DNA from: an uncultured Lachnospiraceae bacterium
Lineage (GTDB): Bacteria; Bacillota; Clostridia; Lachnospirales; Lachnospiraceae
Reading direction: 5' to 3'
DNA: 64,000 bases
Assembly: GCA_964369775.1 (NCBI GenBank)
Contig: CAYJHQ010000004.1
Location: forward strand, 15,030-79,029
A program made the position numbers and the translations under genes. Under the pieces are notes generated by a model that was not told the origin of the DNA, searched no databases, and saw only the letters and a program-made list of their open reading frames with translations. Of the stretch, positions 22,583 through 64,000 are shown one piece after another. Positions within the stretch are counted from its first letter, which is position 1. Each line of letters begins with the position of its first letter.

Positions 22583-22610
22583 AAAAGAGCCTTTCGGCTC
22601 TCTTTTTTTT

Positions 22611-22623
22611 GGAACTCAGTTCC
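22611..22623. promoter_or_regulatory. element palindrome GGAACTSAGTTCC copy 1
   Basis: Perfect 13-bp palindrome adjacent to a terminator T-run. Confidence 0.6.
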
Positions 22624-22629
22624 AAAATT

Positions 22630-22818
22630 CTATTTCGAGGTTAATACAACCTGCTCTTTCTTGCTCATCAGCACCACCGTCACCCATGATGATTGAAATA
22701 ATTTTGACTTTTGGGCCGCGACCTCTCTAGCTCTCTCTTCATTCTCAGCTAATACAACCATCGCTCTATCCTCTCCTATCCCAATCTCTCCTGATCTCTT
22801 CAGTAAAAATACGCTCAT
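22630..22818 (-). CDS. hypothetical protein (62 aa)
   Basis: AAAGGAGAAAAAA RBS. First of the minus-strand cassette series. Confidence 0.45.
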   Translation of the reverse strand: MSVFLLKRSGEIGIGEDRAMVVLAENEERAREVAAQKSKLFQSSWVTVVLMSKKEQVVLTSK

Positions 22819-22931
22819 TTTTTTCTCCTTTGTGTGTTTTATATTATTATAGAAGAAACTCGAAATCCGTGTGTTTTTGCACGGAAGTCAAAAATTCAAA
22901 ACAAAAGCTTTTTAGGGGATGTGGTTTCAAA

Positions 22932-23180
22932 CTACGAGCTCTTTACCTTTTGCAAATAATGCACGCTCGACGTGCTCCTAATTAGTAAAATATCTACAAA
23001 TTTCTGGTCATTCATATAGCACTGTTCAAGCTTTTTCACTTCTTTTGCTGACAAGTGAATTACCCCAGCTACTCGATTGCTTAACTCTACCTTGTTGTTT
23101 CTCAATCTTACTTTCACAACAGATCCAACCATAGGTTTTAATTTTTCTCCCGAAGTGTATAACACCTTATATCTTTCCAT
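22932..23180 (-). CDS. hypothetical protein (82 aa)
   Basis: Preceded by leader CATATTAAAAATAAAAGGA and terminator of upstream cassette. Confidence 0.45.
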   Translation of the reverse strand: MERYKVLYTSGEKLKPMVGSVVKVRLRNNKVELSNRVAGVIHLSAKEVKKLEQCYMNDQKFVDILLIRSTSSVHYLQKVKSS

Positions 23181-23234
23181 CCAATTTACCGTCCTTTTAT
23201 TTTTAATATGTAAAAAAAGAGAGCTTTCGCCCTC

Positions 23235-23690
23235 CTACTTTTTTGAATTATTGATGAAGTTAAATTGGAATACTGCGATTTCGGCAGCTATTTCACCCCT
23301 CCCAGACCTTGTAACTCTGTGGTTTGCTACATAATCTCTAGCTGTTTCATCTGAGTCAGACGTCTTCACCTCCATGCTATCAATTCCGTAACTAGATGCT
23401 TTCTCCAGAATAAATGATTGCATCTCGTCTGGTGCTTCAGACAGCATCAATAGAGACTCCTCGTCATTTAGTATCTCTGGAAATAATTCTAGTTCATCAA
23501 GCAACAATGCAAGCGCCTCTTCATTATCTGCCTTAAAGATTGGAATGAAGCAATGAAATGAATCATTATTTGTAATAGAAAACACAACCTCTGACATTTT
23601 ATTTACAACCCTTTCGCCCACAGCTTTTATTTCTAGATCCCATCCATATAATCCCTTATACAGATCTTTAACTTTCTCTAACTTTTCCAT
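23235..23690 (-). CDS. hypothetical protein (151 aa)
   Basis: Conserved leader TGAAAATAAATTTTAGGAGGA 6 nt before ATG. Confidence 0.55.
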   Translation of the reverse strand: MEKLEKVKDLYKGLYGWDLEIKAVGERVVNKMSEVVFSITNNDSFHCFIPIFKADNEEALALLLDELELFPEILNDEESLLMLSEAPDEMQSFILEKASSYGIDSMEVKTSDSDETARDYVANHRVTRSGRGEIAAEIAVFQFNFINNSKK

Positions 23691-23772
23691 ATTCTCGTCC
23701 TCCTAAAATTTATTTTCAGAGGTAATATGACAAACTATGAAAAAAAAAGAGACGGATTACTCCGCCTCTTGA

Positions 23773-24207
23773 CTATGCGCTCTCCCAAGATGCCTCTGGC
23801 TCATACAGATAGAATCGTTGGTAGCCATTTCCACTTCTGGAAACTCCAAAAGCTGTAGCAGAGCTTACTCTTCCTCCCCGCTCGTCCTTAATAATGATTG
23901 CTGTTTCTTTGATTTCTGTAATTCGAACCATTGATTTATGGCACTCTTTCTCGTCAATAAACCACAAAAGACACCCTCTAACATTATCTAATTCATCCAA
24001 CGATAACGGTCCTGGATATTCCCTTTCAATCTTCTCCACAAGGGCTTCTTTTGCCAGCAGCATTCGGCGAAGCATTATTGTCCAAGAGCCACCGCCTATA
24101 TCTAGCAAATCTGTGATTCCATTGATTTTCATGCACTCAATAATACTTTGCTCAATCAGCATGACCGATTGAACTAATTCATCTCTTTTATTAATATTTT
24201 TTTCCAT
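23773..24207 (-). CDS. hypothetical protein (144 aa)
   Basis: AAAGGAG RBS. Confidence 0.5.
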   Translation of the reverse strand: MEKNINKRDELVQSVMLIEQSIIECMKINGITDLLDIGGGSWTIMLRRMLLAKEALVEKIEREYPGPLSLDELDNVRGCLLWFIDEKECHKSMVRITEIKETAIIIKDERGGRVSSATAFGVSRSGNGYQRFYLYEPEASWESA

Positions 24208-24235
24208 ACAAACACTCCTTTATGCTTATAATATA

Positions 24236-24535
24236 CTACTCGATTGGCTCCCAAGGTGCAATTGGCTCTTCTTCAAAGAATCTATGAACGCCTCTCTCTA
24301 CATTTGCTCGGCTAACTATAAACAAATTAGTCTCAACGCAATGCTGGTCTACATCTTTAATAGAAACAAGACCCTTTGACCGCTCTGCCTCATTTACATA
24401 CCACAGCTCTCTCTTTGTTGTTTTTGCTAATTTTTTGACAGAAATCGGATGAATCACGTCTTTTGTTGAAGAGCTTAGCACCTCTTTTCGTATCGAGTGA
24501 CTGCTACTTGTGTAGCAATATTTTGCTGTATTCAA
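24236..24535 (-). CDS. hypothetical protein (99 aa, TTG start)
   Basis: GGGGGA RBS before TTG. The 15-mer motif lies upstream. Confidence 0.4.
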   Translation of the reverse strand: MNTAKYCYTSSSHSIRKEVLSSSTKDVIHPISVKKLAKTTKRELWYVNEAERSKGLVSIKDVDQHCVETNLFIVSRANVERGVHRFFEEEPIAPWEPIE

Positions 24536-24648
24536 TAGGTATTCCCCCTTTCTTATAATAGATTAACATAAATAAAAAATCTATATTTTTTTGCACGGAG
24601 AGCGTTGTTTCAACAAAAAAAAGGAGCTATACGCCCCTTTTCCTATTT

Positions 24649-25161
24649 TTAGTTCTGAAAATAACCCCTTTTTTTATTATAAAACATGTCCATAAGATTT
24701 TCACAATTCATGCAAGTGAATTCGAACACGTCTGCCTGGATGTTTGTGCGATAGTGATATCTTCTACCGCATTCACAAGAAGGGTAGACCATGTACATAT
24801 CAGTAAGTCTTGTTACCTCTTGGCAATGCGAACATGTATAATTATATAGAGGGATTTTGGATGAGAATGCTTTTCGCTCTCCACAATGCTCGCATTCGAC
24901 AAGCAAAAACCCAGAATTCATACGCTCGCCTCCATCGACATCTATAGGACTGTTTGAGGGCTTATCATGGAGCACCTCTTTCCTCGTACCATATTGCTTT
25001 TTCTCATCAACCTCCTTTTTAGAGTGACATTTTCCTCCACACTTGCATTCGTGTGGAATCGGATGCGCAACGCTTAATGCATGATGAAGCAACTTTACCA
25101 CTTCTTCCTCTGGAAGCTCTGTGCTTATATTTCCAATTGGTGATTTAATTTTAACTAACAT
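24649..25161 (-). CDS. multi-CxxC zinc-ribbon protein
   Basis: Four CxxC pairs. GGAGAAAG RBS before ATG at 25161. Confidence 0.5.
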   Translation of the reverse strand: MLVKIKSPIGNISTELPEEEVVKLLHHALSVAHPIPHECKCGGKCHSKKEVDEKKQYGTRKEVLHDKPSNSPIDVDGGERMNSGFLLVECEHCGERKAFSSKIPLYNYTCSHCQEVTRLTDMYMVYPSCECGRRYHYRTNIQADVFEFTCMNCENLMDMFYNKKRGYFQN

Positions 25162-25961
25162 ACTTCTTTCTCCTCTCTTAGTTCCCAACTAGGATCCCAC
25201 TTTTCAGTCATTCGCTTTTGTCGTCTACGCCTTCTTAGTCGTAAGCGCTTTTCTTTTTGTTCTTCGCCATTTCTCTTTCGACAACTTGAGTATGGGTTTT
25301 TCAATACTCTTTTTAGTGACGAACTCCTCTTTGCTCTTGCATAGCTGATATCTCCAACTAGCAAGTCCGCGTTTTCTTCATCGAAATGTTCGCTATATGG
25401 AACAGCTTCAACGCTAAGCTCTTTCTTTGCGCCCCTAGCTTTTGCCTTTTGGATTCCCCATGTGAATTGAGCGATTCTCTTCCATCTATCTTCGCTAACA
25501 AGAGGCTTAGCTCCCGCAAAGGACTCTTTAACAAGCATCGAGTTTTTTCGGATTTTTGACCACTCCTCGAAAACCCAATCAAAAAGGATAGGGCGTGTTA
25601 AGTGATATTTCATGATTTCTCTGAATAACACCTTGTCATAGATCGAATTTCCATTTACGTCGCATAGATATAGGTGACGCTTCTGCTCTCTCCTAAATAG
25701 TTGCACGTAGGTATCTGAGTCGATACGCTTGATAAGCCTTAGCAAGTCGTCCCAAAAAACGAAAGCCTCGGATTGGTAAAGATAGCGGACAACTTGGTCG
25801 TAACTTTCAAACACCGTCAATTTTAGGCATCCGTAATTACTAAACAAATGGCCTTGCGATTTCAACTCTTCTAACGTGAGCGCGTCGTCTATAAGGAAAT
25901 ATATAGGCTTGAATGGAAGCTCCCTTTCTGTAATCTCTCTGATGATTTTTTTGTGTTCCAT
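25155..25961 (-). CDS. hypothetical protein (268 aa) with poly-basic C-terminus
   Basis: ORF with RRRRRQKR tail. Upstream CATATTAAAAATAAAAAGAG leader. Confidence 0.5.
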   Translation of the reverse strand: MEHKKIIREITERELPFKPIYFLIDDALTLEELKSQGHLFSNYGCLKLTVFESYDQVVRYLYQSEAFVFWDDLLRLIKRIDSDTYVQLFRREQKRHLYLCDVNGNSIYDKVLFREIMKYHLTRPILFDWVFEEWSKIRKNSMLVKESFAGAKPLVSEDRWKRIAQFTWGIQKAKARGAKKELSVEAVPYSEHFDEENADLLVGDISYARAKRSSSLKRVLKNPYSSCRKRNGEEQKEKRLRLRRRRRQKRMTEKWDPSWELREEKEVC

Positions 25962-26046
25962 GTGTAAACCTCTCTTTTTATTTTTAATATGCCAAAATCA
26001 ATGCATTGAAGCGTAACATTTAACCCTAAATTCAAAAAAAGAGAAC

Positions 26047-26059
26047 GGAACTGAGTTCC
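26047..26059. promoter_or_regulatory. element palindrome copy 2
   Basis: GGAACTGAGTTCC between terminator and CATATT box. Confidence 0.6.
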
Positions 26060-26392
26060 ATTCTCCATATCTATGATCAATTGCAATTGCTGCAGCCTAG
26101 TATAAACCGTAGCTGCTGTGAATAGCTAAAAAACTAACTCTAGGATTTTGTCAAAAGCTAAATCTTGAGTAGTGACTTTTATACATTTTAAGCATTAAAG
26201 GTTAATCGCTAAGTATTAAATACTGATTGTTAAGCGTTATCCTTCTTTATGGTGTGTTGACGCAATGATTGATCCTTGTTGATGCCTCATTCGATGGCAC
26301 ACCTCTTTATAATGTTTTATTTTACTTTGCATAACCTTGCAAAGAGAGGTCACAGCTTTACAGTTTTTCGCAACAATTACAAGGAATCTATA

Positions 26393-27022
26393 CTACCACT
26401 CCAATTCGATTGTAGTTACTGCGTTTGATACCGCTAAGGCTGTATCTACGTTACTTCTAAACTCATCAATTTCATCTTCTAGCTTTCGAATCACTTCCAA
26501 AATCCCTAGGGGATCCTCTAGTATATGTTGATTTGCTTTATTGTGCGCGGCCACGATGGAGTCGATTTGATTTGCTGAATCACCCTCTTTTCCACCACAT
26601 GCTAGTGTTTTAAGAATCTCGTTCAAGCTTTTGTCGCTCTTTTTATTTTCGCTTGCCACTACCTTTTCCGCAAGGCTGTATTGCTGCTTCAATTCATCTA
26701 AGAGGTCTTCTTTGTAAGAAATACTCTGCTTGTAATCGATGACTTCCGCTACTGACATTTTTTGATTCCCGATTGAAACCTCCGTGTTTGCATTTGAGGC
26801 AATAATTTTGGCCTTTAGATCCATTCGATTTTTAATTAACGCTGCAATTGAGTCGTAGGTAGAGGTCGCGTTTGCTTTAAACGCTTTAACAGTTTTCGCA
26901 TTGACAAGAGTATCTGTCGTCTTTCTTGCTGCCACAAATGTACCAGACTCCACTTTTTTTCTGATTTTTGAATCTTGCAACTTCAATTCGTTTAACGCTT
27001 CCGTTACTGTAATTTTTCTCAT
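26393..27022 (-). CDS. hypothetical coiled-coil protein
   Basis: GGAGAAAGG RBS before internal ATG (MRKITVTEAL...). The track start at 27079 lacks an RBS. Confidence 0.5.
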   Translation of the reverse strand: MRKITVTEALNELKLQDSKIRKKVESGTFVAARKTTDTLVNAKTVKAFKANATSTYDSIAALIKNRMDLKAKIIASNANTEVSIGNQKMSVAEVIDYKQSISYKEDLLDELKQQYSLAEKVVASENKKSDKSLNEILKTLACGGKEGDSANQIDSIVAAHNKANQHILEDPLGILEVIRKLEDEIDEFRSNVDTALAVSNAVTTIELEW

Positions 27023-27195
27023 AAAATAATTCCTTTCTCCGTTTTCTGTTCTTGCTAAAGATTCCTCTGGTAGAGGCAATCCCCGTCTTTAACACGCGGT
27101 TGGCTTAGAAAAACAATATTGTGTGAGTTCTAATATTTCTCACTTCTTTAATATGCGAAATTTTAGTCTGCTTGATCGCGAATCAACAAAATTTC

Positions 27196-27969
27196 TTAAC
27201 AATTTCTGGAACTGAGTTCCAATTTTTGATGATTGGATAGCCTTGCTCTTCCGATTTTGCAATATTTCTCTTCTTTTTCTATCCCAATCCATCTTCTGTT
27301 TAAATTTTCTGCTCCTAAGCAAGTCGTAAAGCTTCCTGCTGTGTTATCTAGCACCAAATCACCTTCATTGCTATAGGTCTTAATTAGATATTCTATTAAG
27401 GCAAGTGGTTTCTGGGTAGGGTGAAAGGAATATCTTTGTGTATCTGTGGAAAAAATTTGAATACTTTTGGGATATCGTTTAGTTGAACAATATTCGTGAT
27501 CTCGACTATTTTTTCCGTATACCTCCGTATTAGATTCCTTTTTCTTCTTTGATTTCTTTAATGCGTGACCACTTGTCATCTGAGGATTATAGGTTGGTTG
27601 CTTCCTATAAAAGACGCTGATCAACTCATGATTTCTCATAGGTTGGCGCTTTGCATTGAAATAACCTACACCTTTCACTTTGTCCCAAACCCAGTCGTAT
27701 TTATAGTTTTTAATATTACTTGCCCTCAATGTACTAGAAAATGGCTCCGTTCCAAACAAAACAATAGCCCCATTTTTTTTCACGACTCTATTGTACTGCT
27801 CCCACAAAGGCTCGAACGGTATCACTGTATCCCATTTACACTTCGTGATTCCGTAAGGCAAGTCACAAAGCACCATATCGACACTGTTATCTTCTATCCC
27901 ATTCATAACTTCCAGGCAGTCTCCTTGATAGATGCTGCCAAGCTCCGTGCTGTAATAACTATCTTGCAT
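27196..27969 (-). CDS. orphan DNA methyltransferase (beta-class N6-adenine/N4-cytosine; motif IV DLPY before motif I)
   Basis: Reverse complement of 28035..27196 translates to ...SVDMVLCDLPYG...DNTAGSFTTCLGAENLNRRWIGIE. The track labels this ORF + but only the minus strand gives this reading (CAT at 28033-28035, TTA at 27196-27198). AAGGA RBS before MQDSYY at 27969. Confidence 0.75.
   Translation of the reverse strand: MQDSYYSTELGSIYQGDCLEVMNGIEDNSVDMVLCDLPYGITKCKWDTVIPFEPLWEQYNRVVKKNGAIVLFGTEPFSSTLRASNIKNYKYDWVWDKVKGVGYFNAKRQPMRNHELISVFYRKQPTYNPQMTSGHALKKSKKKKESNTEVYGKNSRDHEYCSTKRYPKSIQIFSTDTQRYSFHPTQKPLALIEYLIKTYSNEGDLVLDNTAGSFTTCLGAENLNRRWIGIEKEEKYCKIGRARLSNHQKLELSSRNC
27208..27220. promoter_or_regulatory. 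element palindrome copy 3
   Basis: GGAACTGAGTTCC. Confidence 0.6.
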
Positions 27970-28000
27970 ATTTTTCATCCTTTTATTTTTAATATGCAAA
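27970..28000 (-). promoter_or_regulatory. representative cassette leader (class B): CATATTAAAAATAAAAGGA
   Basis: Shared by methyltransferase (27969), 22932..23180, 25155..25961. Similar TTAATATG boxes at 32820, 41660, 48513, 51008, 55927, 57938, 60058, 63348 (plus-strand coordinates). Confidence 0.45.
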
Positions 28001-28027
28001 AAGCAAGGCTTGAACCTCGCTTTGTAC

Positions 28028-28216
28028 CTACACATACCCCTTCAATCTCAAATATTGTTTTGTCTTTAGCTCTTCTTTTTCACGAATCGCTAGCTTTGCT
28101 TCTGCCGTTTTGTACGCAACAGCCAACACGCTCTCTGGTAGCGCTTTCACTACTTCTTCTGGTGATGCTGATCCAATCGCCACGCCTAGTCGCTCTTTCA
28201 AACCTTCTTTACTCAT
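28028..28216 (-). CDS. hypothetical small protein, paralogous to the N-terminus of 28311..28952
   Basis: KERLGVAIGSASPEEVVKALPESVLAVAYK aligns with RCRLESATAGSTVEEIARAMPQAMAAAVYK. AAGGGGG RBS. Confidence 0.45.
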   Translation of the reverse strand: MSKEGLKERLGVAIGSASPEEVVKALPESVLAVAYKTAEAKLAIREKEELKTKQYLRLKGYV

Positions 28217-55620: not shown

Positions 55621-55625
55621 ACTCC

Positions 55626-58331: not shown

Positions 58332-58350
58332 GCCTTTCGCTTTAGTAAAA

Positions 58351-59514
58351 TTATTTCTTTGCATACACATTCCATGAAAACCTATCACAGATCACCCCTA
58401 AATCTACCTCACGCCCACAGCAGGAGCATACTTCCTTTGTGTTGCTGTCTGGAAAGCAAGAAATACGAGTGATTCCAATATAACTGCCACAATCAGCACA
58501 ATTATACTGATTTTCGCATCTCAATAAACCATCAAGATAAAGTGCATTCAGTATATGTGCCACATCAACCACCTTTATTGATAAATTGTAGGCTATGTCA
58601 CTAGCCGAATACCACCTCTTTTGAAGCTCATCATGCTCAAAAATATTCCAAACTGTTTGCGCTAATTCTTTGTTACGGTATTTTTGGAGTACAATGTCAG
58701 CAACCTTTCTAAAATCACTAACAATGTGATCCGGTCTGATTGCTCGTCGTTCTATACGACGCTTTAGCACCATATCGTGATTGAAATCTGCGCGGCTCCA
58801 AGATGAAATTTTCAGCAAATTTTGATAAGTTTCATCGCATACATACTCTGCATTCACCCTAATAGAAGTAATTTCCGCCTCTGACGCCATAAGAATATCC
58901 TTTGTCATGCTATCGCCAATATATATTGTCTCGGATGGCAATACATCTTCATTGGCGCAAATGTAAAGCAGAGCCTTATAATCAGGCTTTTTTGTTTGCA
59001 ATTGTCTCATTATAGAACATTTCGGACCAAAACTCCCTCGCACACCTACAGCATGATAGATTTCAGTGAAATAGTTATAGATGCCAAGATGGTGCAGTTT
59101 TCGCATAGCAGCTCCACTAGAAGATTCTGTGAATGCTACAACTCTCACACCTTGCTCTGTAAGTTCTTGCAATGTTTCTTTTACACCTGGATAAAGTTTC
59201 AATTTTTCCTTTTGCACTGCCTGAAATGCCTTTATAGCATTCTCTACAGCATCTTTGAAATCCTCCATATCTGTAAATCTTTGATGTAGCAATGGCAATT
59301 GTTTAATTGCATTTCTGATTTCTTCCATTTCTCCTGATCCCACATGAAGCTGACGAAACTCCTCTTTTACCTCATCTTTGCTGACAGTGCAAACAAAAGA
59401 CAAGTAATCAACCAGGCTGTCAACTAATGCCTCAAATGCTGGAACAAAATAATTCTCCCATGAGTATAGTGTACCGTCTAAATCTGTGATTACTAATTTT
59501 ACTTTTTTGTTCAT
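58351..59514 (-). CDS. HAD-superfamily hydrolase with C-terminal Cys4 zinc-finger domain
   Basis: Motif I ITDLDGTL, later IGDSMTKD. C-terminal CADCG...CSCCG. Confidence 0.6.
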   Translation of the reverse strand: MNKKVKLVITDLDGTLYSWENYFVPAFEALVDSLVDYLSFVCTVSKDEVKEEFRQLHVGSGEMEEIRNAIKQLPLLHQRFTDMEDFKDAVENAIKAFQAVQKEKLKLYPGVKETLQELTEQGVRVVAFTESSSGAAMRKLHHLGIYNYFTEIYHAVGVRGSFGPKCSIMRQLQTKKPDYKALLYICANEDVLPSETIYIGDSMTKDILMASEAEITSIRVNAEYVCDETYQNLLKISSWSRADFNHDMVLKRRIERRAIRPDHIVSDFRKVADIVLQKYRNKELAQTVWNIFEHDELQKRWYSASDIAYNLSIKVVDVAHILNALYLDGLLRCENQYNCADCGSYIGITRISCFPDSNTKEVCSCCGREVDLGVICDRFSWNVYAKK

Positions 59515-59585
59515 TTTATCTTCCTCCTAAAATTGTTTTTCAAAAGGAATATGTGGAATTAAGGTAAAAAAGTATGCAAAAAGGC

Positions 59586-59598
59586 GGAACTCAGTTCC
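59586..59598. promoter_or_regulatory. element palindrome copy 20
   Basis: GGCGGAACTCAGTTCCGCC (19-bp palindrome). Confidence 0.6.
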
Positions 59599-59612
59599 GC
59601 CTTCTACCTCTC

Positions 59613-60035
59613 TTATTCAACCGCGTTCAAGTCAGCTAATCGAAACACAATACCTCTGCAATACTTCTCGCCATCTTCTAGTACAGAGAAATACTCAGCT
59701 TCAATGTCCTCTGCAAATTCGAACATCCAAGGATATTCCCCATTCCCATACTCGCACTTTAGTGGCACTCCAGCCTTTTTAAGTTCGCGATAATATTTGC
59801 AGTGACCGCATTCCTCATCTCGGTCTTCCATAACGCCACATTTTGTCAACAATATAGTACTTGGATTATAGCAATCCACTTCATCTTCGATCGCCCCTCG
59901 AAGCTCTACTAAGTCATCCGAAGCCCCAAAGACAACCACTAATCCATTTGATTTGGCTTCTCTTTCTAAATCCTCTGTCATTTCTTGTCTGTACTCGCAG
60001 CCATCTAGTTGTCTTGCTAATTCTTTAATGTCCAT
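59613..60035 (-). CDS. hypothetical Cys-containing protein (140 aa)
   Basis: ORF with 15-mer/leader upstream. Confidence 0.45.
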   Translation of the reverse strand: MDIKELARQLDGCEYRQEMTEDLEREAKSNGLVVVFGASDDLVELRGAIEDEVDCYNPSTILLTKCGVMEDRDEECGHCKYYRELKKAGVPLKCEYGNGEYPWMFEFAEDIEAEYFSVLEDGEKYCRGIVFRLADLNAVE

Positions 60036-60380
60036 TTACGTACCATCCTTTTTTTCTTTAATATGGCAAATCACAAGCCTTTATCGTATCCCCAAAAAGA
60101 CTTTTATATCCCAGACTCATCGGGGTTTCACGCTCTTCATTGTTTAATCTAGTATCTTTCTTAGAAAAACAAAACCACTACTTTCTCAAGTAGTGGCCTG
60201 TTCAAAAAAATGGATGCGTGCTCTGCGCACCCGTAAAAGAAATCTGGCGATATCGCCATTCAAGATAATATTATGAAATTATTCATAAAAATTATTTCCA
60301 ACACTAATATGCAGAATTTCCTAAATATAAAAATTGTTTTTTTGATTTGTATATTTATTTTTTTAAATTCGTAGAAAAAC

Positions 60381-60393
60381 GGAACTGAGTTCC
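60381..60393. promoter_or_regulatory. element palindrome copy 21
   Basis: CGGAACTGAGTTCCA. Confidence 0.6.
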
Positions 60394-60403
60394 ACTTCTC
60401 TTG

Positions 60404-60919
60404 CTACCTCTCCCCATTTGTGAAAGCCTGTACTGATGTTTTTACCTCGTTTCCAGCCATATCTATAAGCACTTGTCGCACATTCGAGTCTATAAACCCT
60501 TGCTCATGATGCTCGTACTCTCCATCTGCTATAACAACCTCATAGCTAGTCACTCCGCTTTCTGCCTCTGCTACAAACTCATGAGTCGCCCCAAAGGAAG
60601 AACCATGATAATTTAGCTCTACACCAGATTTATCTATCAAATCAATATCCATAGTGTATGTTTCGCCTGGAACTAACCCTGAATACGTATATTCATACAC
60701 AACGGCGACATCTTTCGCCTCCTCTGATTCATGCTCATGTTCATGCGAATGCTCTTCTTCGTGACTATGCTCAGCTTCTGTTGCTACCGACCCTGAATCA
60801 CTTCCACCACACGCTGTTAGGCCAACCGCCATCCCAGCAATTATAATAGCCATAGCAGCGACCTTTCCTTTTATTATCATTTCTTTCTCAATAATTTGGA
60901 TTAATGTTTTCACTTTCAT
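60404..60919 (-). CDS. lipoprotein with His/Glu-rich metal-binding stretch
   Basis: Lipobox GLTACGG. EAEHSHEEEHSHEHEHESEE. AGGAG RBS. Confidence 0.55.
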   Translation of the reverse strand: MKVKTLIQIIEKEMIIKGKVAAMAIIIAGMAVGLTACGGSDSGSVATEAEHSHEEEHSHEHEHESEEAKDVAVVYEYTYSGLVPGETYTMDIDLIDKSGVELNYHGSSFGATHEFVAEAESGVTSYEVVIADGEYEHHEQGFIDSNVRQVLIDMAGNEVKTSVQAFTNGER

Positions 60920-61107
60920 TTTTAAACTCCTACTCTCTTTCTAATTTTCGTCCTTGACTATTGTATTATACCTCATGGTGAAAGACTACTTATTTTTGCA
61001 CGGAAGTTGTTTTTGGCAATTTACATATGAACAAAATCGCTACCTATTTCTCACAATATATAATATCGCATCTATGTCCTCTGCGGTGACTTCCAACTCT
61101 CATGAGC

Positions 61108-61120
61108 GGAACTGAGTTCC
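61108..61120. promoter_or_regulatory. element palindrome copy 22
   Basis: CGGAACTGAGTTCCA. Confidence 0.6.
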
Positions 61121-61143
61121 ACCTCTCCTCATTGATTTCTTCT

Positions 61144-61539
61144 TTACAAAACTTTGTATACTGATATTGTTGTATCAGCTGACACATTCTCAAATCCACA
61201 ACATTCGCATTCGAAAGAGTGTGGCATCTCGCCTGCCGCGTCGTAACACTCTGATGTTGAACGATGACACTTGCAACATATTGGTTTGTAATAACGCTTT
61301 AGCACTCCATATTCTTCTAGAGTCTTAAGCAGCTTATATGCCTGATCTGCGTCAATTTTCACCAACCTTTGGATAACGGATAGATACAACCACATGCCCT
61401 TCTTGTAGTGAGCCGATAGAGCTTCGAATCGTTTATAGCTCTTGCTCTTACTCGATCCCAATACCTCTTTGATTTTTTCTTGTAATACATTGTTTGTTAA
61501 TGCTGCATCACGCACCTCTATCCTCCTTATCTGCCTCAA
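61144..61539 (-). CDS. winged-helix + zinc-ribbon small protein (TTG start)
   Basis: CCKCHR...CECCGF cysteines; basic helix region. Confidence 0.4.
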   Translation of the reverse strand: MRQIRRIEVRDAALTNNVLQEKIKEVLGSSKSKSYKRFEALSAHYKKGMWLYLSVIQRLVKIDADQAYKLLKTLEEYGVLKRYYKPICCKCHRSTSECYDAAGEMPHSFECECCGFENVSADTTISVYKVL

Positions 61540-61987
61540 CCTCTGTAAACACTATATTCTCACCTTCCACATCAGCCACCAATACACCCTCTGCCTCTAT
61601 TGCTCCATCTAAGCTAATTGAATCACCAACCTCAATAGATTCAATTGAAGTGGCGGTGTATTTGACTCCATTTTCGCTAACAAACTCTGAGCCCTCTTCG
61701 CCCACGCCTATGCAAATCAATTGCTCCTGAAATCCTTCTTTTTCTTCTTTAACATTTTCTACCACAACTTCTTGCTCCGTCATCGGATTTGGCTTTGGAA
61801 TAAAGCACAAAGCTAGAAACACAATCGCAAATCCAACTGCTAATCTGAGAGTGCCTAAGCTAAAACGCCCATCTTGATAACCTGGTATCACCATACACAC
61901 AGTTGCAACGAAAAGAATTGTCATCAAAGCATAAAATGGCTTGAGTTCCCAAGCGGCCTGATGTATTATCGCTATAATATCAGTCAT
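61508..61987 (-). CDS. membrane protein (159 aa)
   Basis: Three N-terminal TM helices. ATGA overlap with DUF2130-like gene. Confidence 0.5.
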   Translation of the reverse strand: MTDIIAIIHQAAWELKPFYALMTILFVATVCMVIPGYQDGRFSLGTLRLAVGFAIVFLALCFIPKPNPMTEQEVVVENVKEEKEGFQEQLICIGVGEEGSEFVSENGVKYTATSIESIEVGDSISLDGAIEAEGVLVADVEGENIVFTEVEADKEDRGA

Positions 61988-63315
61988 TATTCTACCTCCT
62001 TTAGTTCTTCAAATTTAGCAATCATAGTTGGATTGCCTTTTGTTAATTTCTTAATTGTTAAATCCTCAGCCTTCTTATTCGCCAATCTTAGATTATCCTC
62101 TGATGATAACAATGCTTTCTTTGTTTTTTCTAAGTGGTCAATTGTTTTATCAATCTCATTGATGGCTGCTTGGAATTTCTCACTAGCCAATCTATAATTA
62201 CGCCCAAACTTACTCTTGAAGTCATTCATTTGATCCTCAAAGTTAGAGATATCAATGTTTTGATTTTGTATTTCTGCTAATTGCTCCTTGCATTCCGCTG
62301 AATTCTTTGCTGCGTTTCGAAGCAAGGTAATCATTGGAATAAAGAACTGAGGACGAATAACATACATCTTAGGATATTTATGAGACACATCTACGATTCC
62401 ATTGTTATAATAATCATTATCCTTTTCTAACATAGAAACTAAGATTGCGTACTCGCATCCCTTTTCTCGCCTATCCTTATCAAGCTCTTTAAAGAAATCC
62501 TCGTTTTTCTTTTTTGTAGCCGTCTCGTCTGCTTCATTCTTCATCTCAAACATGATTGAAATAAGCTCGGATCCATTTTCTGTAAAGTCTTTAAATATAA
62601 AATCTCCCTTGCTTCCGGTGCGTGCGTCATTATCTTTTTCGAAATAGGCAGTAGGGAATCCTACATGGCGAACTTGATTGAATGACAGCTCGCAGTGCTG
62701 CTCTAATGTCTCTCCTATCATCTTTGTAGATTGTTTCGCCTTTAAGTCTCTATAAAAGCTGATTTGTTCATCTTTCTCTGCCAGCTTGTCTTTGTAGCCA
62801 TCCTCAAGCATCTTTACTTTTAGTTCATTCGCTGATGCAAGGCTTTTGCTTTCATATTGCAAGGAAGTAATCTCCTTTTCCTTTTCAGAAATAGCCGCTT
62901 GCCCCTTCAATTGCTCTGCATTAATCGCTAATTCCTTTTGATACTCCGCCTGCTCTAGTTTGCTTTTTAGTTTTTCAATCTCTGAACGAAGATCCGCGGT
63001 GCTCTTGTCTAGGTTTGCCTTAGCCGTCGCTTTTTCTAGCTCAATCTTGCTGACACTTTCCTTTTGCGCACCCTCTATTTGCGATTTTAGGCGCTCTATT
63101 TCTGCATTTGACTCTGCTAAGCTCTTTTCTAAGTAGGCTTTTGCATTGGCTTTCACCACCTCTACCTCTTTGCCAGCAGCAGCCTTTAACAATTCCTCTC
63201 TTTCTTTTAATTCCTTTTGAAATTCCACATTTTTAATTTGCTCCACAATGGCGATATAACCTGATTCATCTACTGTAAATGCTTCGCCACATTTAGGGCA
63301 TTTAATTTCACTCAT
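61987..63315 (-). CDS. DUF2130-like coiled-coil protein with N-terminal CxxC and C-terminal nuclease-like domain
   Basis: [13 protein letters not shown] zinc ribbon, long coiled coil, conserved C-terminal block ...GDFIFKDF...[12 protein letters not shown]... Confidence 0.6.
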
Positions 63316-63453
63316 TAATTTTTCCTCCTAGTATTATTTTTCTATTTTTAATATGCTTGAAATTTTCTATCTCGCAAAAATAATTTTATCAACTTTTAGG
63401 AATTTCCTATTTTTGCACGGAAGTCAAAAAAAAGAAGGCTCTCGCCCTCTCTT

Positions 63454-63804
63454 CTAACAACTCCAGCCCTCATCAGTGCAGATTGTTTTTCCTTCTAAAA
63501 ATTGTTTGTGTATAGCTTGATATCTCGCTTTCAGCTCACCATTGCTCTTCTCGATTCCGTTCTCTAGGAAAGCTTGCGCATTTTCTTTGCGACTCCATGT
63601 TTCTGTTACGCCACAGAGTGTCATGGTGACGCTATCTGAAACTTGCTTCCCGATAAAATCTACCTCTGCAAAATCCTCATCGGTAAGAATTGTTTCACAA
63701 TTGCTATATTGATCTTCCACGATCTCTTCGGCGGCCTCCACAGACTCTGCCTCAACAATTACGCATTTCACCAATTTTTCTACAATTTTTACTTCCACTT
63801 TCAT
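63454..63804 (-). CDS. hypothetical protein (116 aa)
   Basis: Leader AGGAGGAAGAGCA. Confidence 0.45.
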   Translation of the reverse strand: MKVEVKIVEKLVKCVIVEAESVEAAEEIVEDQYSNCETILTDEDFAEVDFIGKQVSDSVTMTLCGVTETWSRKENAQAFLENGIEKSNGELKARYQAIHKQFLEGKTICTDEGWSC

Positions 63805-64000
63805 TGCTCTTCCTCCTAATTGTTAATTTATTCAGTAGAAATATGACAAAAGGTGCAAAAAAAGACAGGCTAATGCCTGCCTAGTCCTCAAAAAAATCAT
63901 CTATGTCTCTAAGCAAGTACAAGCATCTCCCGAGATAGCCTGTCATTTGCCCCAGCCCTGCTATCTTATTTGATATGGATATGGAAAACACATCCTCGGT

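What the first reader, a model, noticed from the sequence alone, without database searches (positions are those of the whole stretch)
22609..64000. Cargo region built from about 50 co-oriented single-gene cassettes with near-identical terminator-operator-promoter-leader modules
Almost every ORF from 22.6 kb to the window end is on the minus strand.

Each is flanked by the same module:
- A GAGAGC-N4-6-GCTCTC hairpin plus T-run terminator.
- The GGAAC palindrome.
- A CATATT box.
- One of two leaders ending in a strong SD: class A TGAAAATAAATTTTAGGAGGA (at least 15 copies) or class B CATATTAAAAATAAAAGGA.

More than 100 bp of near-identical sequence between unrelated genes is a ready substrate for homologous cassette shuffling, gain and loss. 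It is reminiscent of phage morons or integron cassettes, but with a different architecture: each cassette carries its own promoter, and the integrase is convergent rather than divergent.

Cargo content:
- Orphan beta-class MTase.
- ArdC-like HExxH protein.
- RNase HI.
- RT.
- Many small ORFs.

All genes are transcribed in one direction, as described for plasmid/ICE leading regions, and the content is anti-restriction / anti-defence-like. No capsid, terminase, relaxase or T4SS genes occur in the 44 kb seen here.
Basis: partly seen in the sequence, partly recalled or inferred. Interest (0 to 1): 0.6.

Follow-up and report, generated by a model that had tools for sequence, protein, structure and literature searches.

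The report
Mobile element with its own promoter grammar
About 44 kb of an integrated mobile element is laid out as some 40 small self-contained expression units that all use the same unusual promoter, leader and terminator signals; other gut conjugative elements share these signals but the host flank does not, which suggests an element-borne transcription programme rather than a gene-shuffling platform.

Summary

**What is there**
- From about 20.2 kb to the window end lies an integrated element: a tRNA-3'-like att remnant, a tyrosine integrase, then about 48 co-oriented minus-strand genes.
- 36 start codons are preceded at -29 to -47 by an invariant CATATT box. The box has a T-rich 5' side, a T-G start signal 5 nt downstream, no -35 element, and a short A-rich leader with AGGAGG.
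- A 13-bp palindrome, GGAACTSAGTTCC, occurs 23 times in the element and never in the 20-kb host flank.
- Terminator-like hairpins are about threefold enriched. Sigma-70 consensus promoters are not enriched.

**What is overstated**
- The units share motifs, not long repeats. The longest exact shared run is 31 nt, and the best ungapped identity over 115 nt is 59%.
- Cassette shuffling by homologous recombination is therefore unsupported.

**Wider distribution**
- The same grammar occurs in 17 human-gut metagenome loci with unrelated genes and different GC content. These loci carry VirB4, VirD4, TopB and SSB.

**Interpretation**
- It is an element-lineage-specific regulon of insulated units.
- The closest described analogues are the establishment regulons of pLS20/p576 plasmids.
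- Whether the element is an ICE or a large prophage is unresolved, and the factor that reads CATATT is unknown.

The parts
20165..20255 (-). tRNA-3'-end-like fragment (T-arm GTGGG-TTCAAGT-CCCAT plus acceptor 3' strand) next to the integrase start. Probable att remnant and left boundary of the element.
   Evidence: Read directly from the sequence. ARAGORN calls no intact tRNA here. All element-specific motifs start to the right of this point.
20351..21520 (+). Tyrosine integrase, preceded by its own CATATT box at 20314 and followed by a GGAAC-type terminator at 21523-21547.
   Evidence: Pfam Phage_integrase, E 1.9e-18. Best solved relatives are phage and Tn1549-type integrases; the match to IntI4 is only partial. 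Nearest homologues are 45% identical or less and sit in prophages.
21604..22582 (+). Two plus-strand genes: a 202-aa protein matching phrog_3205, and a 103-aa protein with a helix-turn-helix-like N-terminus that is a possible excisionase. Each has its own module, class A at 21565 and class B at 22245.
22609..64000 (-). Co-oriented accessory arm of about 48 genes in about 40 transcription units. It runs off the right end of the window.
28953..29040 (-). Type example of a full module: GAGAGC-TTAG-GCTCTC hairpin plus T-run, GGAACTCAGTTCC, 18 nt, CATATT, 5 nt, TGAAAATAAATTTTAGGAGGA, 7 nt, ATG.
   Evidence: (family D18). Only the two short hairpins fold; the CATATT box and the leader are unstructured.
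23210..63845 (-). 33 minus-strand CATATT boxes. The first base of each (the C), in plus-strand coordinates, is at: 23210, 23729, 25991, 27996, 28991, 29401, 29596, 30109, 31024, 32826, 33280, 35285, 38417, 38621, 39785, 40203, 41672, 42713, 43073, 43915, 44715, 51013, 52034, 52832, 54829, 55563, 55945, 57941, 58297, 59553, 60065, 63355, 63845. Three more lie on the plus strand at 20314, 21565 and 22245.
   Evidence: The position matrix shows T at -5 to -3, invariant CATATT, A at +6, and T-G-A-A-A-A at +11 to +16. Nothing is conserved where a -35 element would lie.
21529..61120 (.). 23 copies of the 13-bp palindrome GGAACTSAGTTCC. Start positions: 21529, 22611, 26047, 27208, 29010, 30127, 32856, 33302, 35310, 37985, 38639, 39125, 40228, 43188, 43933, 44740, 51131, 51604, 55608, 58319, 59586, 60381, 61108. 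About 9-10 have an extended stem and a T-run and look like terminators. Three are intragenic: 27208, 37985, 39125.
   Evidence: (0.04 expected by chance).
22874..63423 (-). Second promoter-like class: the box CTTCCGTGCAAAAA(TA), with 8 copies at 22874, 24588, 34215, 51362, 54883, 57973, 60993 and 63410. A TATAAT-like hexamer follows 22-30 nt later. In three cases the box sits upstream of a CATATT unit.
   Evidence: family D12; 0.76 expected by chance. The variant TTGTGCAAAAA is seen in the metagenome loci L174, L179 and L182.
27196..28035 (-). Orphan N6/N4 DNA methyltransferase.
   Evidence: Pfam N6_N4_Mtase, E 4e-32. It is 47% identical to a gene in the module-bearing locus L185.
34306..38377 (-). 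UG27 reverse-transcriptase system: RT_UG27 (37067-38377), RTas346 (35359-35838) and RTas337 (34306-35241). Between the RT and RTas346 lies a stretch of about 1.2 kb (35840-37060) with no convincing ORF, made of GC-rich hairpins each followed by a TATAGAAATGTGCC box.
   Evidence: PADLOC E-values 5e-159, 6e-38 and 5e-40. Sequence and fold. No Rfam match. The system is described as a gut-phage-borne RT with an ncRNA in PMC9226505.
40249..42675 (-). GGDEF-EAL protein (40249-41643) and ArdC-N plus HExxH protein (41725-42675).
   Evidence: ArdC homologues are 38% identical or less and sit in conjugative elements.
44808..50975 (-). Two secreted adhesin-like proteins of 1183 aa (DUF11, DUF7507) and 785 aa (SpaA, Big_8). 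They share 19-aa repeats and a C-terminal tail of LQT[SG]DSS, a hydrophobic stretch and basic residues.
   Evidence: (families D1, D4).
52075..63315 (-). Further cargo genes: YAcAr SLOG (52075-52473), RNase H with a Cauli_VI N-terminal domain (54161-54865), AAA_28 (56715-57902), HAD hydrolase (58351-59514), T-Q ester domain protein (60404-60919) and DUF2130 (61987-63315).
   Evidence: The closest DUF2130 homologues, 80-86% identical at protein level, sit in ordinary chromosomal or defence-island contexts without the module.

Best explanation
The region is the accessory arm of an integrated mobile element. Nearly every gene, or short operon, in it is an insulated, autonomous expression unit built from four consensus signals:
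1. An intrinsic terminator that closes the upstream unit. This is either a GAGAGC-type hairpin or the GGAACTSAGTTCC hairpin, followed by a T-run.
2. A promoter without a -35 element. It consists of a T-rich stretch, an invariant CATATT box at the -10 position, and a T-G pair 5 nt downstream that would fix the transcription start.
3. A 5' leader of about 27 nt that is A/U-rich and unstructured.
4. A perfect AGGAGG Shine-Dalgarno sequence 6-9 nt before the ATG.

These signals are a lineage-specific 'expression grammar'. They travel with the element and its relatives, which are conjugative elements of other gut Firmicutes with unrelated genes. Host genes do not use them. The units therefore form one large regulon.

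The regulon is most likely read by an element-borne or element-recruited transcription factor, either an alternative sigma or an activator for CATATT. The 13-bp palindrome probably serves both as a terminator stem and as the site of a global regulator. A minority of units use a second promoter class, the CTTCCGTGCAAAAA box followed by a TATAAT-like hexamer, which suggests at least two temporal or regulatory tiers.

The similarity between units comes from functional constraint, plus some local copying of the short leader. It does not come from long repeats.

**Shown:** the motifs, their positions, their statistics, their absence from the host flank, and their presence in other conjugative-element contigs.
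**Inferred:** that CATATT is a -10 box, that the TG pair marks the start, that a dedicated factor exists, and that the palindrome binds a protein.
For: **The units are real and uniform**
- 36 CATATT boxes lie at a fixed distance from start codons.
- The position matrix shows conserved T at -5 to -3, CATATT, and TGAAAA at +11 to +16, with no -35 information.
- The strict module count is 28 in the element, against 0.48 in shuffles, 0 in the host flank and 0.12 per 10 kb in controls.
- Sigma-70 consensus sites are not enriched in the element (41 against 49.9+-7.6; 46 against 51.9+-7.0). Terminator-like sites are enriched (37 against 12.8; 24 against 11.2).
- Host promoters in the flank are canonical TTGACA-17/18-TATAAT, and host genes lack the module.
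- The module folds only into the short hairpins. The CATATT box and leader are open.

**The palindrome is not chance**
- 23 copies against 0.04 expected. Both loop orientations are about equally frequent. Three exact copies lie inside ORFs.

**The grammar is shared beyond this element**
- The composite pattern GGAACTSAGTTCC-N10-40-CATATT-N10-30-AGGAGG hits 17 gut-metagenome loci. Their GC content is 27-43%. They show no nucleotide similarity to the window, and only a methyltransferase and DUF5688 are shared at protein level.
- In these loci the hairpin is always flanked by an A-run, a covarying outer pair (GC or TC on the left, GC or GA on the right) and a T-run.
- Further CATATT-N5-TG units follow other terminators. 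There are 33 modules in 105 kb against 0.86 in shuffles.
- These loci encode VirB4, VirD4 (CD1115 family), TopB, SSB, a DnaG-like zinc-finger protein and a TQ/SpaA adhesin.
- In L172 the module heads the operon that contains VirD4.

**Published analogue**
- In the pLS20/p576 plasmid family, repeated conserved regulatory sequences sit upstream of variable establishment operons that include ardC (PMC8708921).
Against: - No transcription data exist. CATATT as a -10 box and TG as the start are inferences from position only.
- No sigma factor, RNA polymerase or obvious regulator was found in the 44 kb. About 30 ORFs have no family assignment.
- The distance from the palindrome to CATATT varies: 17 to 55 nt or more in the window and 20-36 nt in the metagenome loci. 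This argues against a fixed activator or operator geometry, and fits a plain terminator reused by descent.
- The sites in the position matrix were selected by exact CATATT. The invariance of those six positions is therefore partly circular. Only the 36-of-about-42 proportion of units and the flanking conservation are independent evidence.
- The metagenome hits were found with a pattern that required the palindrome, CATATT and AGGAGG. Only the flanks, the extra modules and the gene content are independent evidence.
- The class of the element is unresolved. The integrase relatives and the UG27 system point to phages.
Confidence: 0.6

Rival explanations
1. The region is a recombination-driven cassette array, like morons or integron cassettes. 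The repeated intergenic modules serve as homology for the gain, loss and shuffling of single-gene cassettes.
For: - The genes are unrelated single units, each flanked by the same kind of signals.
- A few leaders are identical over 21-31 nt although they lie 5-20 kb apart, which suggests some copying or gene conversion.
- A duplicated module with a tiny ORF lies at 38578-38641, next to the module at 38374-38437.
- DUF2130 has close homologues in chromosomes, with homology confined to the ORF. This is as expected if a captured gene had been refitted with element signals.
Against: - The shared sequence is short. The median longest common run is 9 nt and the maximum is 31 nt. The best ungapped identity over 115 nt is 59%.
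- There are no attC-like sites, the integrase is phage-type, and the cassettes carry promoters.
- No sibling element was available, so no cassette-level polymorphism has been seen.
- The only insertion at a hairpin in related loci is a DDE insertion sequence with a duplicated target.
- The DUF2130 copies are only about 75% identical at nucleotide level, so diverged flanks tell us nothing.
Confidence: 0.12
2. The element is a large temperate phage. The arm is its early or host-takeover and accessory region. It would be transcribed from many phage-specific promoters recognised by a phage sigma factor or an RNA-polymerase modifier, as in the SPO1 host-takeover module (recalled from memory, not looked up here).
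For: - The nearest integrases, 45% identical or less, are in prophages with holin, endolysin and tail genes.
- The UG27 RT with clusters 337 and 346 and an ncRNA is reported mainly from predicted gut viruses, not from defence islands (PMC9226505).
- UG27 homologues are found in the phage collection, in Bacteroides phage BS-TP1 at 46% identity, and not in plasmids.
- BS-TP1 has a co-oriented arm of more than 40 kb of small genes that includes the RT, an adjacent non-coding gap, RNase H, a methyltransferase and an anti-restriction gene.
- Three ORFs hit PHROG families.
- One IMG/VR contig carries the hairpin and the modules.
Against: - No capsid, terminase, portal, tail or lysis gene is seen in 44 kb.
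- The composite module pattern has 0 hits in 2.9 million IMG/VR contigs but 17 in gut metagenomes, on contigs with VirB4 and VirD4.
- ArdC-N homologues, DUF5688 and wall-anchored SpaA/TQ adhesins are typical of Gram-positive conjugative elements.
- The ORFan set finds almost nothing in either phage or plasmid records.
Confidence: 0.3
3. There is no special factor. The units are simply strong host sigma-A promoters of a minimal type with only a -10 box and a T-tract, placed next to optimal ribosome-binding sites and efficient terminators. They look alike because selection for rapid, insulated expression converges on one optimum. The GGAAC hairpin is just a favoured terminator stem inherited by descent.
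For: - CATATT matches TATAAT at 4 of 6 positions, including A2 and T6.
- The start signal sits at the canonical distance.
- The distance from hairpin to box is variable.
- Many palindrome copies have an A-run, an extended stem and a T-run, which is the form of a bidirectional intrinsic terminator.
- The leaders are unstructured and A-rich, as expected for efficient translation. Adaptation of leading regions for translational efficiency has been described (PMC13478746).
Against: - A sigma-A -10 box normally shows a spread of variants. Here 36 of about 42 units have exactly CATATT, with C at the first position, and the same holds in unrelated elements of different GC content.
- Host promoters in the flank are canonical and have a -35 element.
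- Three exact 13-bp palindromes lie inside ORFs without T-runs. A pure terminator role does not explain them.
- A terminator stem has no need to keep 13 specific bases across elements that share no other nucleotide similarity.
Confidence: 0.25
4. The module is a host-wide intergenic repeat, like REP, BOX or Correia elements, that merely happens to be dense in this region.
For: - Short palindromic hairpins downstream of genes resemble REP elements.
- An insertion sequence targets the hairpin in a related locus, as some insertion sequences target REPs.
Against: - There are 0 palindromes, 0 modules and no intergenic repeat family in the 20-kb host flank.
- None were found in the chromosomal loci L164, L187 and L188 of related organisms.
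- The module-bearing metagenome loci carry mobile-element genes.
Confidence: 0.03

Closest known systems
Establishment regulons of pLS20-family conjugative plasmids (EGeRS1 on pLS20, EGeRS2 on p576; Val-Calvo et al. 2021, PMC8708921)
   Same: - A Gram-positive conjugative element in which a conserved regulatory sequence is repeated upstream of several variable, mostly unknown genes that include ardC.
- In p576 each copy carries a strong promoter plus operators for a plasmid-encoded repressor.
- In pLS20 the repeated sequence also blocks read-through from upstream.
- Gene content varies between related plasmids while the regulatory sequence is kept.
   Different: - There are 4-5 copies there, against about 36 plus 8 here.
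- EGeRS1 is 420-750 bp long, GC-rich and highly structured. EGeRS2 has a canonical sigma-A promoter flanked by TTATCCCnnTTATCCC operators.
- Neither is present here. The operator motif has 0 matches and the modules here are about 60-90 nt long and unstructured.
- No Reg-like ribbon-helix-helix gene was identified in the window.
- The units here are mostly monocistronic, and the promoter lacks a -35 element.
Leading-region anti-defence islands of conjugative elements (Samuel et al. 2024, PMC11541004)
   Same: - The genes are co-oriented.
- ArdC-type, orphan methyltransferase and many uncharacterised small genes are present.
- Dedicated promoters are repeated upstream of the genes.
   Different: - Those islands are defined relative to oriT and the relaxase, which are not in this window.
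- Their special promoters (Frpo/ssi) are long single-strand hairpins that mimic -35 and -10 elements. The modules here do not fold in that way.
- Much of the cargo here is not anti-defence: adhesins, GGDEF-EAL, SPFH, HAD and the UG27 RT.
Phage morons and the early 'host-takeover' arms of large phages (SPO1 module recalled from memory; Bacteroides phage BS-TP1 arm seen)
   Same: - Single genes are bracketed by their own promoter and terminator.
- The arms are long and co-oriented, made of small genes of unknown function.
- The UG27 RT with an adjacent non-coding stretch, RNase H and a methyltransferase are shared as a gene set with BS-TP1.
   Different: - Morons are scattered between conserved phage genes. 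Here the whole 44 kb is built this way.
- The BS-TP1 genes are tightly packed, without repeated modules.
- No phage structural or lysis genes are seen here.
IncP (RK2/RP4) global regulon with 13-bp palindromic KorB operators (recalled from memory, not looked up here)
   Same: - A 13-bp perfect palindrome with a central G:C pair is scattered in a dozen or more copies over a mobile element.
- The copies lie at variable distances from promoters, and some are inside genes.
   Different: - No ParB/KorB-like gene was found in the window.
- Many copies here double as terminator stems with T-runs.
- The sequences are unrelated.
Integron cassette arrays
   Same: - An integrase sits at one end of an array of co-oriented, unrelated single genes.
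- Each gene is followed by an imperfect palindrome.
   Different: - The cassettes here have their own promoters.
- The palindromes are 13-27 nt long, not 57-141-nt attC sites.
- The integrase is phage/ICE-type and converges on the array, next to a tRNA-like att site.

Membership tests
Integron | IntI-type integrase, transcribed divergently from the array, with attI and Pc next to it | tested here: not met
   The integrase converges on the array and abuts a tRNA-like att remnant. Its best solved relatives are phage and Tn1549-type integrases. The match to IntI4 is partial only, E 4e-7 over residues 161-239.
Integron | Promoterless cassettes, each ending in an attC site (an imperfect palindrome of 57-141 nt) | tested here: not met
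   36 units carry their own CATATT box. The hairpins downstream of genes have 13-27-nt stems followed by T-runs.
Leading-region anti-defence island of a conjugative element | Located next to oriT and the relaxase, on the first-transferred side | not testable with these tools
   No relaxase or oriT lies in the window. The source contig of 105,955 bp could not be retrieved.
Leading-region anti-defence island of a conjugative element | Genes co-oriented and enriched in anti-defence, methyltransferase and SSB families | tested here: inconclusive
   Co-orientation is met. ArdC-N, an orphan methyltransferase and a YAcAr SLOG protein are present. There is no SSB and no known anti-CRISPR or anti-restriction family besides ArdC-N. 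Many other genes are cargo of different kinds.
Leading-region anti-defence island of a conjugative element | Frpo/ssi-type single-strand promoters: long hairpins that carry -35 and -10 elements | tested here: not met
   DNA folds of six modules show only the short terminator hairpins. The CATATT box is unpaired. No sigma-70 consensus enrichment is seen.
EGeRS-type establishment regulon (pLS20/p576) | A conserved regulatory sequence repeated upstream of several operons, including ardC | tested here: met
   The CATATT and leader module precedes 36 genes, including the ArdC-N gene (box at 42713).
EGeRS-type establishment regulon (pLS20/p576) | Sequence homology to EGeRS1 (420-750 bp, GC-rich, structured) or EGeRS2 (sigma-A promoter with TTATCCCnnTTATCCC Reg operators and a reg gene) | tested here: not met
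   The operator motif has 0 matches with up to 2 mismatches. The modules are short, AT-rich and unstructured. No ribbon-helix-helix family hit was found among the proteins scanned.
Integrative and conjugative element (ICE) | Integrase plus att site at the boundary | tested here: met
   A tyrosine integrase lies next to a tRNA-3'-like fragment. Element-specific motifs start there.
Integrative and conjugative element (ICE) | Relaxase, coupling protein and type IV secretion genes | tested here: inconclusive
   None were found in the 44 kb seen. The element continues beyond the window. Contigs that share the module do encode VirB4 and VirD4.
Prophage | Terminase, portal, capsid, tail and lysis genes | tested here: inconclusive
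   None were found in the window by Pfam or PHROGs. The PHROGs scan covered only 10 ORFs. The remainder of the element is unseen. The integrase relatives and the UG27 system are phage-associated.
UG27 reverse-transcriptase system (Mestre et al. 2022) | RT_UG27 with cluster 337 and cluster 346 proteins, and a structured non-coding region next to the RT | tested here: met
   PADLOC gives RT_UG27 at E 5e-159, RTas337 at 5e-40 and RTas346 at 6e-38. A hairpin-rich stretch of about 1.2 kb lies between the RT and RTas346. The family is described.
Host-wide intergenic repeat (REP/BOX-like) | Dispersed over the host chromosome at ordinary genes | tested here: not met
   There are 0 copies of any module component in the 20-kb host flank, and none in related chromosomal loci. 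Only 20 kb of host sequence was available.

The most novel reading that the evidence does not exclude
A lineage of mobile elements in human-gut Firmicutes, comprising conjugative elements and perhaps large prophages, carries its own transcription grammar. The grammar is a -35-less CATATT-N5-TG promoter, a conserved 13-bp GGAACTSAGTTCC hairpin or operator, and a second CTTCCGTGCAAAAA promoter class. It would be read by an element-encoded sigma-like factor and a global regulator. Dozens of insulated single-gene units, as well as the transfer operons, would then be run as a phage-style temporal programme that is independent of host promoter rules and portable across hosts of 27-43% GC.

One variant also remains open. 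The box is the first six to seven bases of the CATATTAT -10 sequence of mother-cell sporulation sigmas (PMC3789822). This would tie element expression to sporulation.
Probability: 0.3. Interest if true: 0.75.

Novelty: new variant of a known kind. Interest (0 to 1): 0.55.

Why it matters
If the CATATT units are read by an element-borne factor, this would be a conjugative-element or prophage lineage that brings its own promoter specificity for its whole gene set. That is usual for lytic phages but not established for Gram-positive conjugative elements.

It would have three consequences:
- It would explain how such elements keep dozens of foreign cargo genes silent or co-induced in very different hosts.
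- It would give a simple sequence signature for finding these elements, and for delimiting their regulons, in gut metagenomes. The signature is a hairpin, then CATATT-N5-TG, then AGGAGG.
- It would offer compact, insulated expression parts for engineering gut Firmicutes: terminator, promoter and 27-nt leader in about 80 nt.

Even on the conservative reading, this is the largest and most uniform example seen here of an 'establishment-type' regulon architecture. It has about 40 units, against the 4-5 described for pLS20/p576.

Tried and rejected
**Searches for the element itself**
- Megablast of 24.7 kb of the element against the phage and plasmid collections gave no match.
- The exact class A module pattern gave 0 hits in GTDB representative genomes and in JGI/ENA metagenomes.
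- A 19-nt leader pattern returned only single chance hits. None of them had the palindrome or the CATATT box.
- The source contig could not be retrieved, so the element could not be extended past 64 kb.
- Close relatives of the ArdC, integrase and RT proteins were not found in IMG/VR.

**Searches for sibling elements**
- ArdC homologues are 38% identical or less and lie in ICEs or plasmids with tight operons and no module.
- Integrase homologues are 45% identical or less and lie in ordinary prophages without the module.
- DUF2130 homologues at 80-86% identity lie in chromosomal contexts without the module.

**Searches for the factor that reads the module**
- No sigma or regulator was found by Pfam, NCBIfam, PHROGs or PDB sequence search among the ORFs tested.
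- No protein is shared between the window and the module-bearing loci except a methyltransferase, DUF5688, a TQ domain and one small ORF.
- A concatenated set of 16 ORFans found almost nothing in phage or plasmid records.

**Motif comparisons considered and rejected**
- A CodY box in the leader: 9-10 of 15 positions match.
- An extended -10 element of TRTG type: the bases observed are TTTT.
- Sigma-E or sigma-K -35 elements (ATA or AC): not conserved.
- An ECF-type GGAAC -35 element: the spacing to CATATT varies from 17 to 55 nt or more.
- Frpo-like folds.
- The p576 Reg operator.

**Other**
- A literature search for the motif strings returned only irrelevant papers.

Full report
**Layout of the window**

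Positions 1 to about 20,160 are host DNA.
- A giant minus-strand ORF of more than 2,106 codons runs off the left end.
- The flank also holds tRNA-Thr, a TPP riboswitch, a T-box leader, and tRNA-Met and tRNA-Val.
- Its promoters are canonical, for example TTGACA-18-TATAAT in front of the tRNAs.

At about 20,165-20,255 the minus strand reads like the 3' part of a tRNA: a T-arm, GTGGG-TTCAAGT-CCCAT, followed by the acceptor 3' strand. ARAGORN finds no intact gene there.

Immediately to the right lie a tyrosine integrase (20351-21520, plus strand) and two more plus-strand genes. From 22.6 kb to the window end there are about 48 credible minus-strand genes that converge on them. I read this as the left end of an integrated element of at least 43.8 kb. 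GC content rises slightly, from 0.35-0.38 to 0.38-0.42.

**Is the repeated module real?**

Yes.
- A CATATT box lies 29-47 nt upstream of 36 start codons, 33 on the minus strand and 3 on the plus strand. The integrase gene is one of them.
- A strict pattern (CATATT, 10-32 nt, RGGAG, 4-11 nt, start codon) finds 28 sites in the element, against 0.48 in shuffles. It finds none in the 20-kb host flank. In 85 unrelated, mostly Firmicute, control loci totalling 678 kb it finds 0.12 per 10 kb, against 6.4 per 10 kb in the element.
- Aligning the 36 sites on the box shows T at -5 to -3, A at +6, and T-G-A-A-A-A at +11 to +16. There is no information at all where a -35 element would lie.
- The quoted class A 21-mer has 9 copies within 3 mismatches, with 0.01 expected, and 14 by a looser pattern.
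- Class B has 7 copies within 3 mismatches and about 13 by a looser pattern.
- The palindrome GGAACTSAGTTCC has 23 copies, with 0.04 expected. All are inside the element and 20 are intergenic.
- Terminator-like hairpins are enriched about threefold (37 against 12.8+-3.5; 24 against 11.2+-3.6). Sigma-70 consensus promoters are not enriched (41 against 49.9+-7.6; 46 against 51.9+-7.0).
- Host genes in the flank have none of these features.

The units share motifs, not long repeats.
- Over all 630 pairs of 115-nt modules, the longest exact common run is 31 nt, between two adjacent tandem copies at 38417 and 38621.
- Four pairs reach 25 nt or more. The best ungapped identity is 59% and the median is 37%.
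- '>100 bp of near-identical sequence' is therefore not there, and the argument for homologous recombination loses its basis.
- About ten genes sit in short operons. The count is about 40 units, not 50 single-gene cassettes.
- The GAGAGC-N4-GCTCTC hairpin is one of several terminator types, with 6 exact copies.
- In about 9-10 cases the GGAAC palindrome, extended by 3-8 further pairs and followed by a T-run, is itself the terminator.

**Anatomy and likely function of a unit**

Read on the coding strand, a full unit such as 29040-28953 has these parts in order:
1. A hairpin plus T-run.
2. Optionally, GGAACTSAGTTCC.
3. 17-33 nt that are T-rich.
4. CATATT.
5. 5 nt.
6. T-G-A.
7. An A-rich 20-25 nt stretch ending in AGGAGG.
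8. 6-9 nt.
9. ATG.

If CATATT occupies -12 to -7, the conserved T-G falls at -1/+1. This is the usual pyrimidine-purine start at the usual distance. The 'class A leader' is then simply the whole 5' UTR of about 27 nt.

DNA and RNA folding shows that only the short hairpins pair. The box and the leader are open. This suits efficient initiation of transcription and translation, and it excludes an Frpo-like single-strand promoter.

The box CTTCCGTGCAAAAA(TA) has 8 copies, all on the minus strand and all intergenic, with 0.76 expected. A TATAAT-like hexamer follows 22-30 nt later, and the box is sometimes in tandem upstream of a CATATT unit. The arm therefore has at least two promoter classes.

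**The same grammar elsewhere**

The exact class A module has no match in GTDB representative genomes or in metagenomes. The composite pattern GGAACTSAGTTCC-N10-40-CATATT-N10-30-AGGAGG finds 17 loci in human-gut metagenomes and none in IMG/VR.

These loci have 27-43% GC. They show no nucleotide similarity to the window. At protein level they share only a methyltransferase, DUF5688, a TQ domain and one small ORF.

Several features that the search pattern did not force are nevertheless constant:
- The hairpin is always embedded as A-run, outer pair (GC or TC), GGAACTSAGTTCC, matching outer pair (GC or GA), T-run. The outer pair covaries.
- CATATT is followed after 5 nt by TG.
- Many further CATATT units follow other terminators. 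There are 33 modules in 105 kb against 0.86 in shuffles.
- The second box recurs as TTGTGCAAAAA.

The genes on these contigs are those of conjugative elements:
- a VirB4-like ATPase;
- a VirD4 coupling protein of the CD1115 family;
- topoisomerase TopB;
- SSB;
- a DnaG-type zinc-finger protein;
- a RecD-like helicase;
- a type III restriction-modification system;
- an NT5C-kinase fusion;
- an 1,814-aa TQ/SpaA adhesin;
- IS605 and IS200 elements.

In L172 the module heads the operon that contains VirD4. The grammar is therefore not restricted to cargo.

One IMG/VR contig of 29-32% GC, lying next to a tRNA, also carries five such hairpins and CATATT units.

The module is thus neither private to this element nor host-wide. 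It marks a lineage of gut mobile elements.

**What reads it?**

This is not shown. The arguments for a dedicated factor are these:
- 36 of about 42 units have exactly CATATT, with C where sigma-A prefers T. The same is true in unrelated elements.
- There is no -35 element.
- Host promoters next door are canonical.

The architecture of a T-tract plus a -10-like box resembles promoters of minimal alternative sigmas. CATATTAT is described as the canonical -10 box of the mother-cell sigmas of C. difficile (PMC3789822). However, the ATA or AC -35 elements of those sigmas are not conserved here.

No sigma-like or regulator gene was identified in the 44 kb, where about 30 ORFs have no family. None was found among the proteins shared with the related loci.

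For the palindrome, two facts suggest recognition by a protein:
- The 13 bases are conserved across elements that share nothing else.
- Three exact copies lie inside ORFs, at 27208, 37985 and 39125.

This would resemble the many 13-bp KorB operators of IncP plasmids (recalled from memory). Against a fixed operator or activator role, the distance from the palindrome to CATATT is variable, 17 to 55 nt or more.

I therefore commit to 'regulon of insulated units read by an element-associated factor' at about 0.6. The plain sigma-A and terminator reading remains a live rival.

**What kind of element?**

This is unresolved.

Evidence pointing to an ICE:
- The ArdC-N plus HExxH protein has its nearest homologues, at 38% identity or less, in elements with ParAB, SSB, DUF3991-Toprim, VirB4 and MobL.
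- DUF5688, DUF3232 and a YAcAr SLOG protein are present.
- Two secreted adhesins have a sorting-like tail.
- The grammar is shared with contigs that encode a T4SS.

Evidence pointing to a phage:
- The nearest integrases, at 45% identity or less, are in prophages.
- Three ORFs hit PHROG families.
- The reverse transcriptase is RT_UG27 with its two partner proteins. Mestre et al. 2022 describe this system as typical of predicted gut viruses with an associated structured ncRNA, and as not enriched in defence islands (PMC9226505).
- UG27 homologues occur in Bacteroides phage BS-TP1 and not in PLSDB plasmids.
- BS-TP1 has a comparable co-oriented arm of small genes.

No structural genes of either kind lie in the window. 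The source contig of 105,955 bp could not be fetched.

My estimate is: ICE-like 0.55, large prophage 0.30, other island 0.15.

**Comparison with what is known**

The closest described system is the establishment regulon of pLS20-family plasmids. There, conserved sequences (EGeRS1 and EGeRS2) are repeated upstream of 4-5 variable operons that include ardC. They carry a strong repressible promoter (p576) or block read-through (pLS20), while gene content varies between plasmids (PMC8708921).

The present case works in a similar way but is not a member of that family:
- The Reg operator motif is absent.
- The modules are short, AT-rich and unstructured.
- The promoter is non-canonical.
- There are about ten times as many units.

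It also resembles leading-region anti-defence islands (PMC11541004). However, the position relative to oriT cannot be tested, and the Frpo-type promoters that mark those islands are absent.

Integron membership fails on every feature tested.

The label 'array of morons' is a fair description of the anatomy.

**Cassette shuffling**

I could not find any sibling element, so the decisive comparison is missing.
- Among the module-bearing metagenome loci, the only structural difference at a hairpin is a DDE-transposase insertion sequence in L186. It is inserted exactly at the GGAAC hairpin, and about 19 nt of the hairpin are duplicated on both sides. This is an insertion sequence targeting a palindrome, not cassette exchange.
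- The DUF2130 gene has chromosomal homologues at 80-86% protein identity, with homology confined to the ORF. This fits a captured gene refitted with element signals. At about 75% nucleotide identity, however, the flanks are uninformative.
- The identical leaders of 21-31 nt in a few distant units hint at some local copying or gene conversion.

**Verdict**

The feature is real, statistically overwhelming and specific to the element. The recombination interpretation is unsupported.

The better-supported reading is a very large, uniform regulon of insulated expression units. It uses a non-canonical promoter grammar that is shared by a lineage of gut mobile elements.

This is a new variant of a known kind, namely establishment-type or moron-type architecture. 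It carries a moderately interesting open question: what reads CATATT and GGAACTSAGTTCC?

Noticed in passing
window 34306-38377, minus strand; non-coding part 35840-37060: A UG27 reverse-transcriptase system: RT_UG27, RTas346 and RTas337. The stretch of about 1.2 kb between the RT and RTas346 holds about 7-8 units. Each unit is a different GC-rich imperfect hairpin of 50-70 nt followed by a conserved box, (A/C)TATAGA(A/G)ATGTGCC. The clearest copies are at 36317-36270, 36166-36119 and 35855-35808. It looks like an array of structured repeats attached to the RT and has no Rfam match. The small ORFs 35848-36072 and 36391-36558 inside it are probably not genes.
   Followed up: partly
window 22874, 24588, 34215, 51362, 54883, 57973, 60993, 63410 (minus strand): A second conserved intergenic box, CTTCCGTGCAAAAA(TA), with 8 copies against 0.76 expected. 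A TATAAT-like hexamer follows 22-30 nt later. It also occurs as TTGTGCAAAAA in the related metagenome loci L174, L179 and L182. It may be a second promoter class or a regulator site.
   Followed up: partly
L186 670-2640 compared with L185 3898-4314: An insertion sequence encoding a 498-aa DDE transposase (DDE_Tnp_1_6, DUF772) sits exactly at a GGAAC hairpin. The hairpin, about 19 nt, is duplicated on both sides. The insertion sequence appears to target the palindrome.
   Followed up: partly
window 1-6320, minus strand: An open reading frame of more than 2,106 codons runs off the left end of the window. It is probably a giant host surface protein. It is not listed by the ORF tool because it is cut by the window edge.
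   Followed up: no
window 44808-48359 and 48618-50975, minus strand; repeats at 48823-49221 and 45094-45236: The two adhesin-like proteins share 57-nt (19-aa) tandem repeats. They also share an unusual C-terminal tail: LQT[SG]DSS, then a hydrophobic stretch, then basic residues. There is no LPXTG motif. This may be a variant sortase signal.
   Followed up: no
window 50976-51674: A 699-nt gap without ORFs lies upstream of the 785-aa adhesin gene. It contains a CTTCCGTGCAAAAA box, two TATAAT-like hexamers, two GGAAC palindromes (51131, 51604) and a terminator. It could be a long leader or a small RNA gene.
   Followed up: no
window 38436-38641, minus strand: A second, 84%-identical copy of the promoter-leader module lies 204 nt upstream of the RT's own module. 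It is followed by a tiny ORF of about 35-40 codons and its own terminator (38457-38436).
   Followed up: no
L171 3787-3923 and L175 1271-1407: A non-coding stretch of 137 nt is 90% identical between two contigs of very different GC content (28% and 40%) that share nothing else. In both it lies upstream of a large ORF. It is a possible conserved leader, an oriT-like site or an RNA element.
   Followed up: no
window 61987-63315 compared with L164, L187 and L188: The DUF2130 gene of the element is 80-86% identical at protein level, and about 75% at nucleotide level, to chromosomal or defence-island copies in related genomes. The homology stops at the ORF ends. It looks like a host-type gene captured by the element and placed under element signals.
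   Followed up: partly
L199 and L201 (IMGVR_UViG_3300029478_000114): The only IMG/VR contig with the GGAAC hairpin (5 copies, with TC...GA outer pairs) and CATATT units. It lies next to a tRNA 3' end. It encodes an RtcB-like ligase very similar to that of Bacteroides phage BS-TP1, and a ParA-like protein.
   Followed up: partly
window 26393-27022, minus strand: A 209-aa protein matches phrog_1491 over its full length (E 5e-56). The family is labelled 'tail fiber protein', but its homologues are annotated as hypothetical proteins in T5-like and many other phages (733 records). The label is probably wrong. The gene sits next to the orphan methyltransferase.
   Followed up: partly
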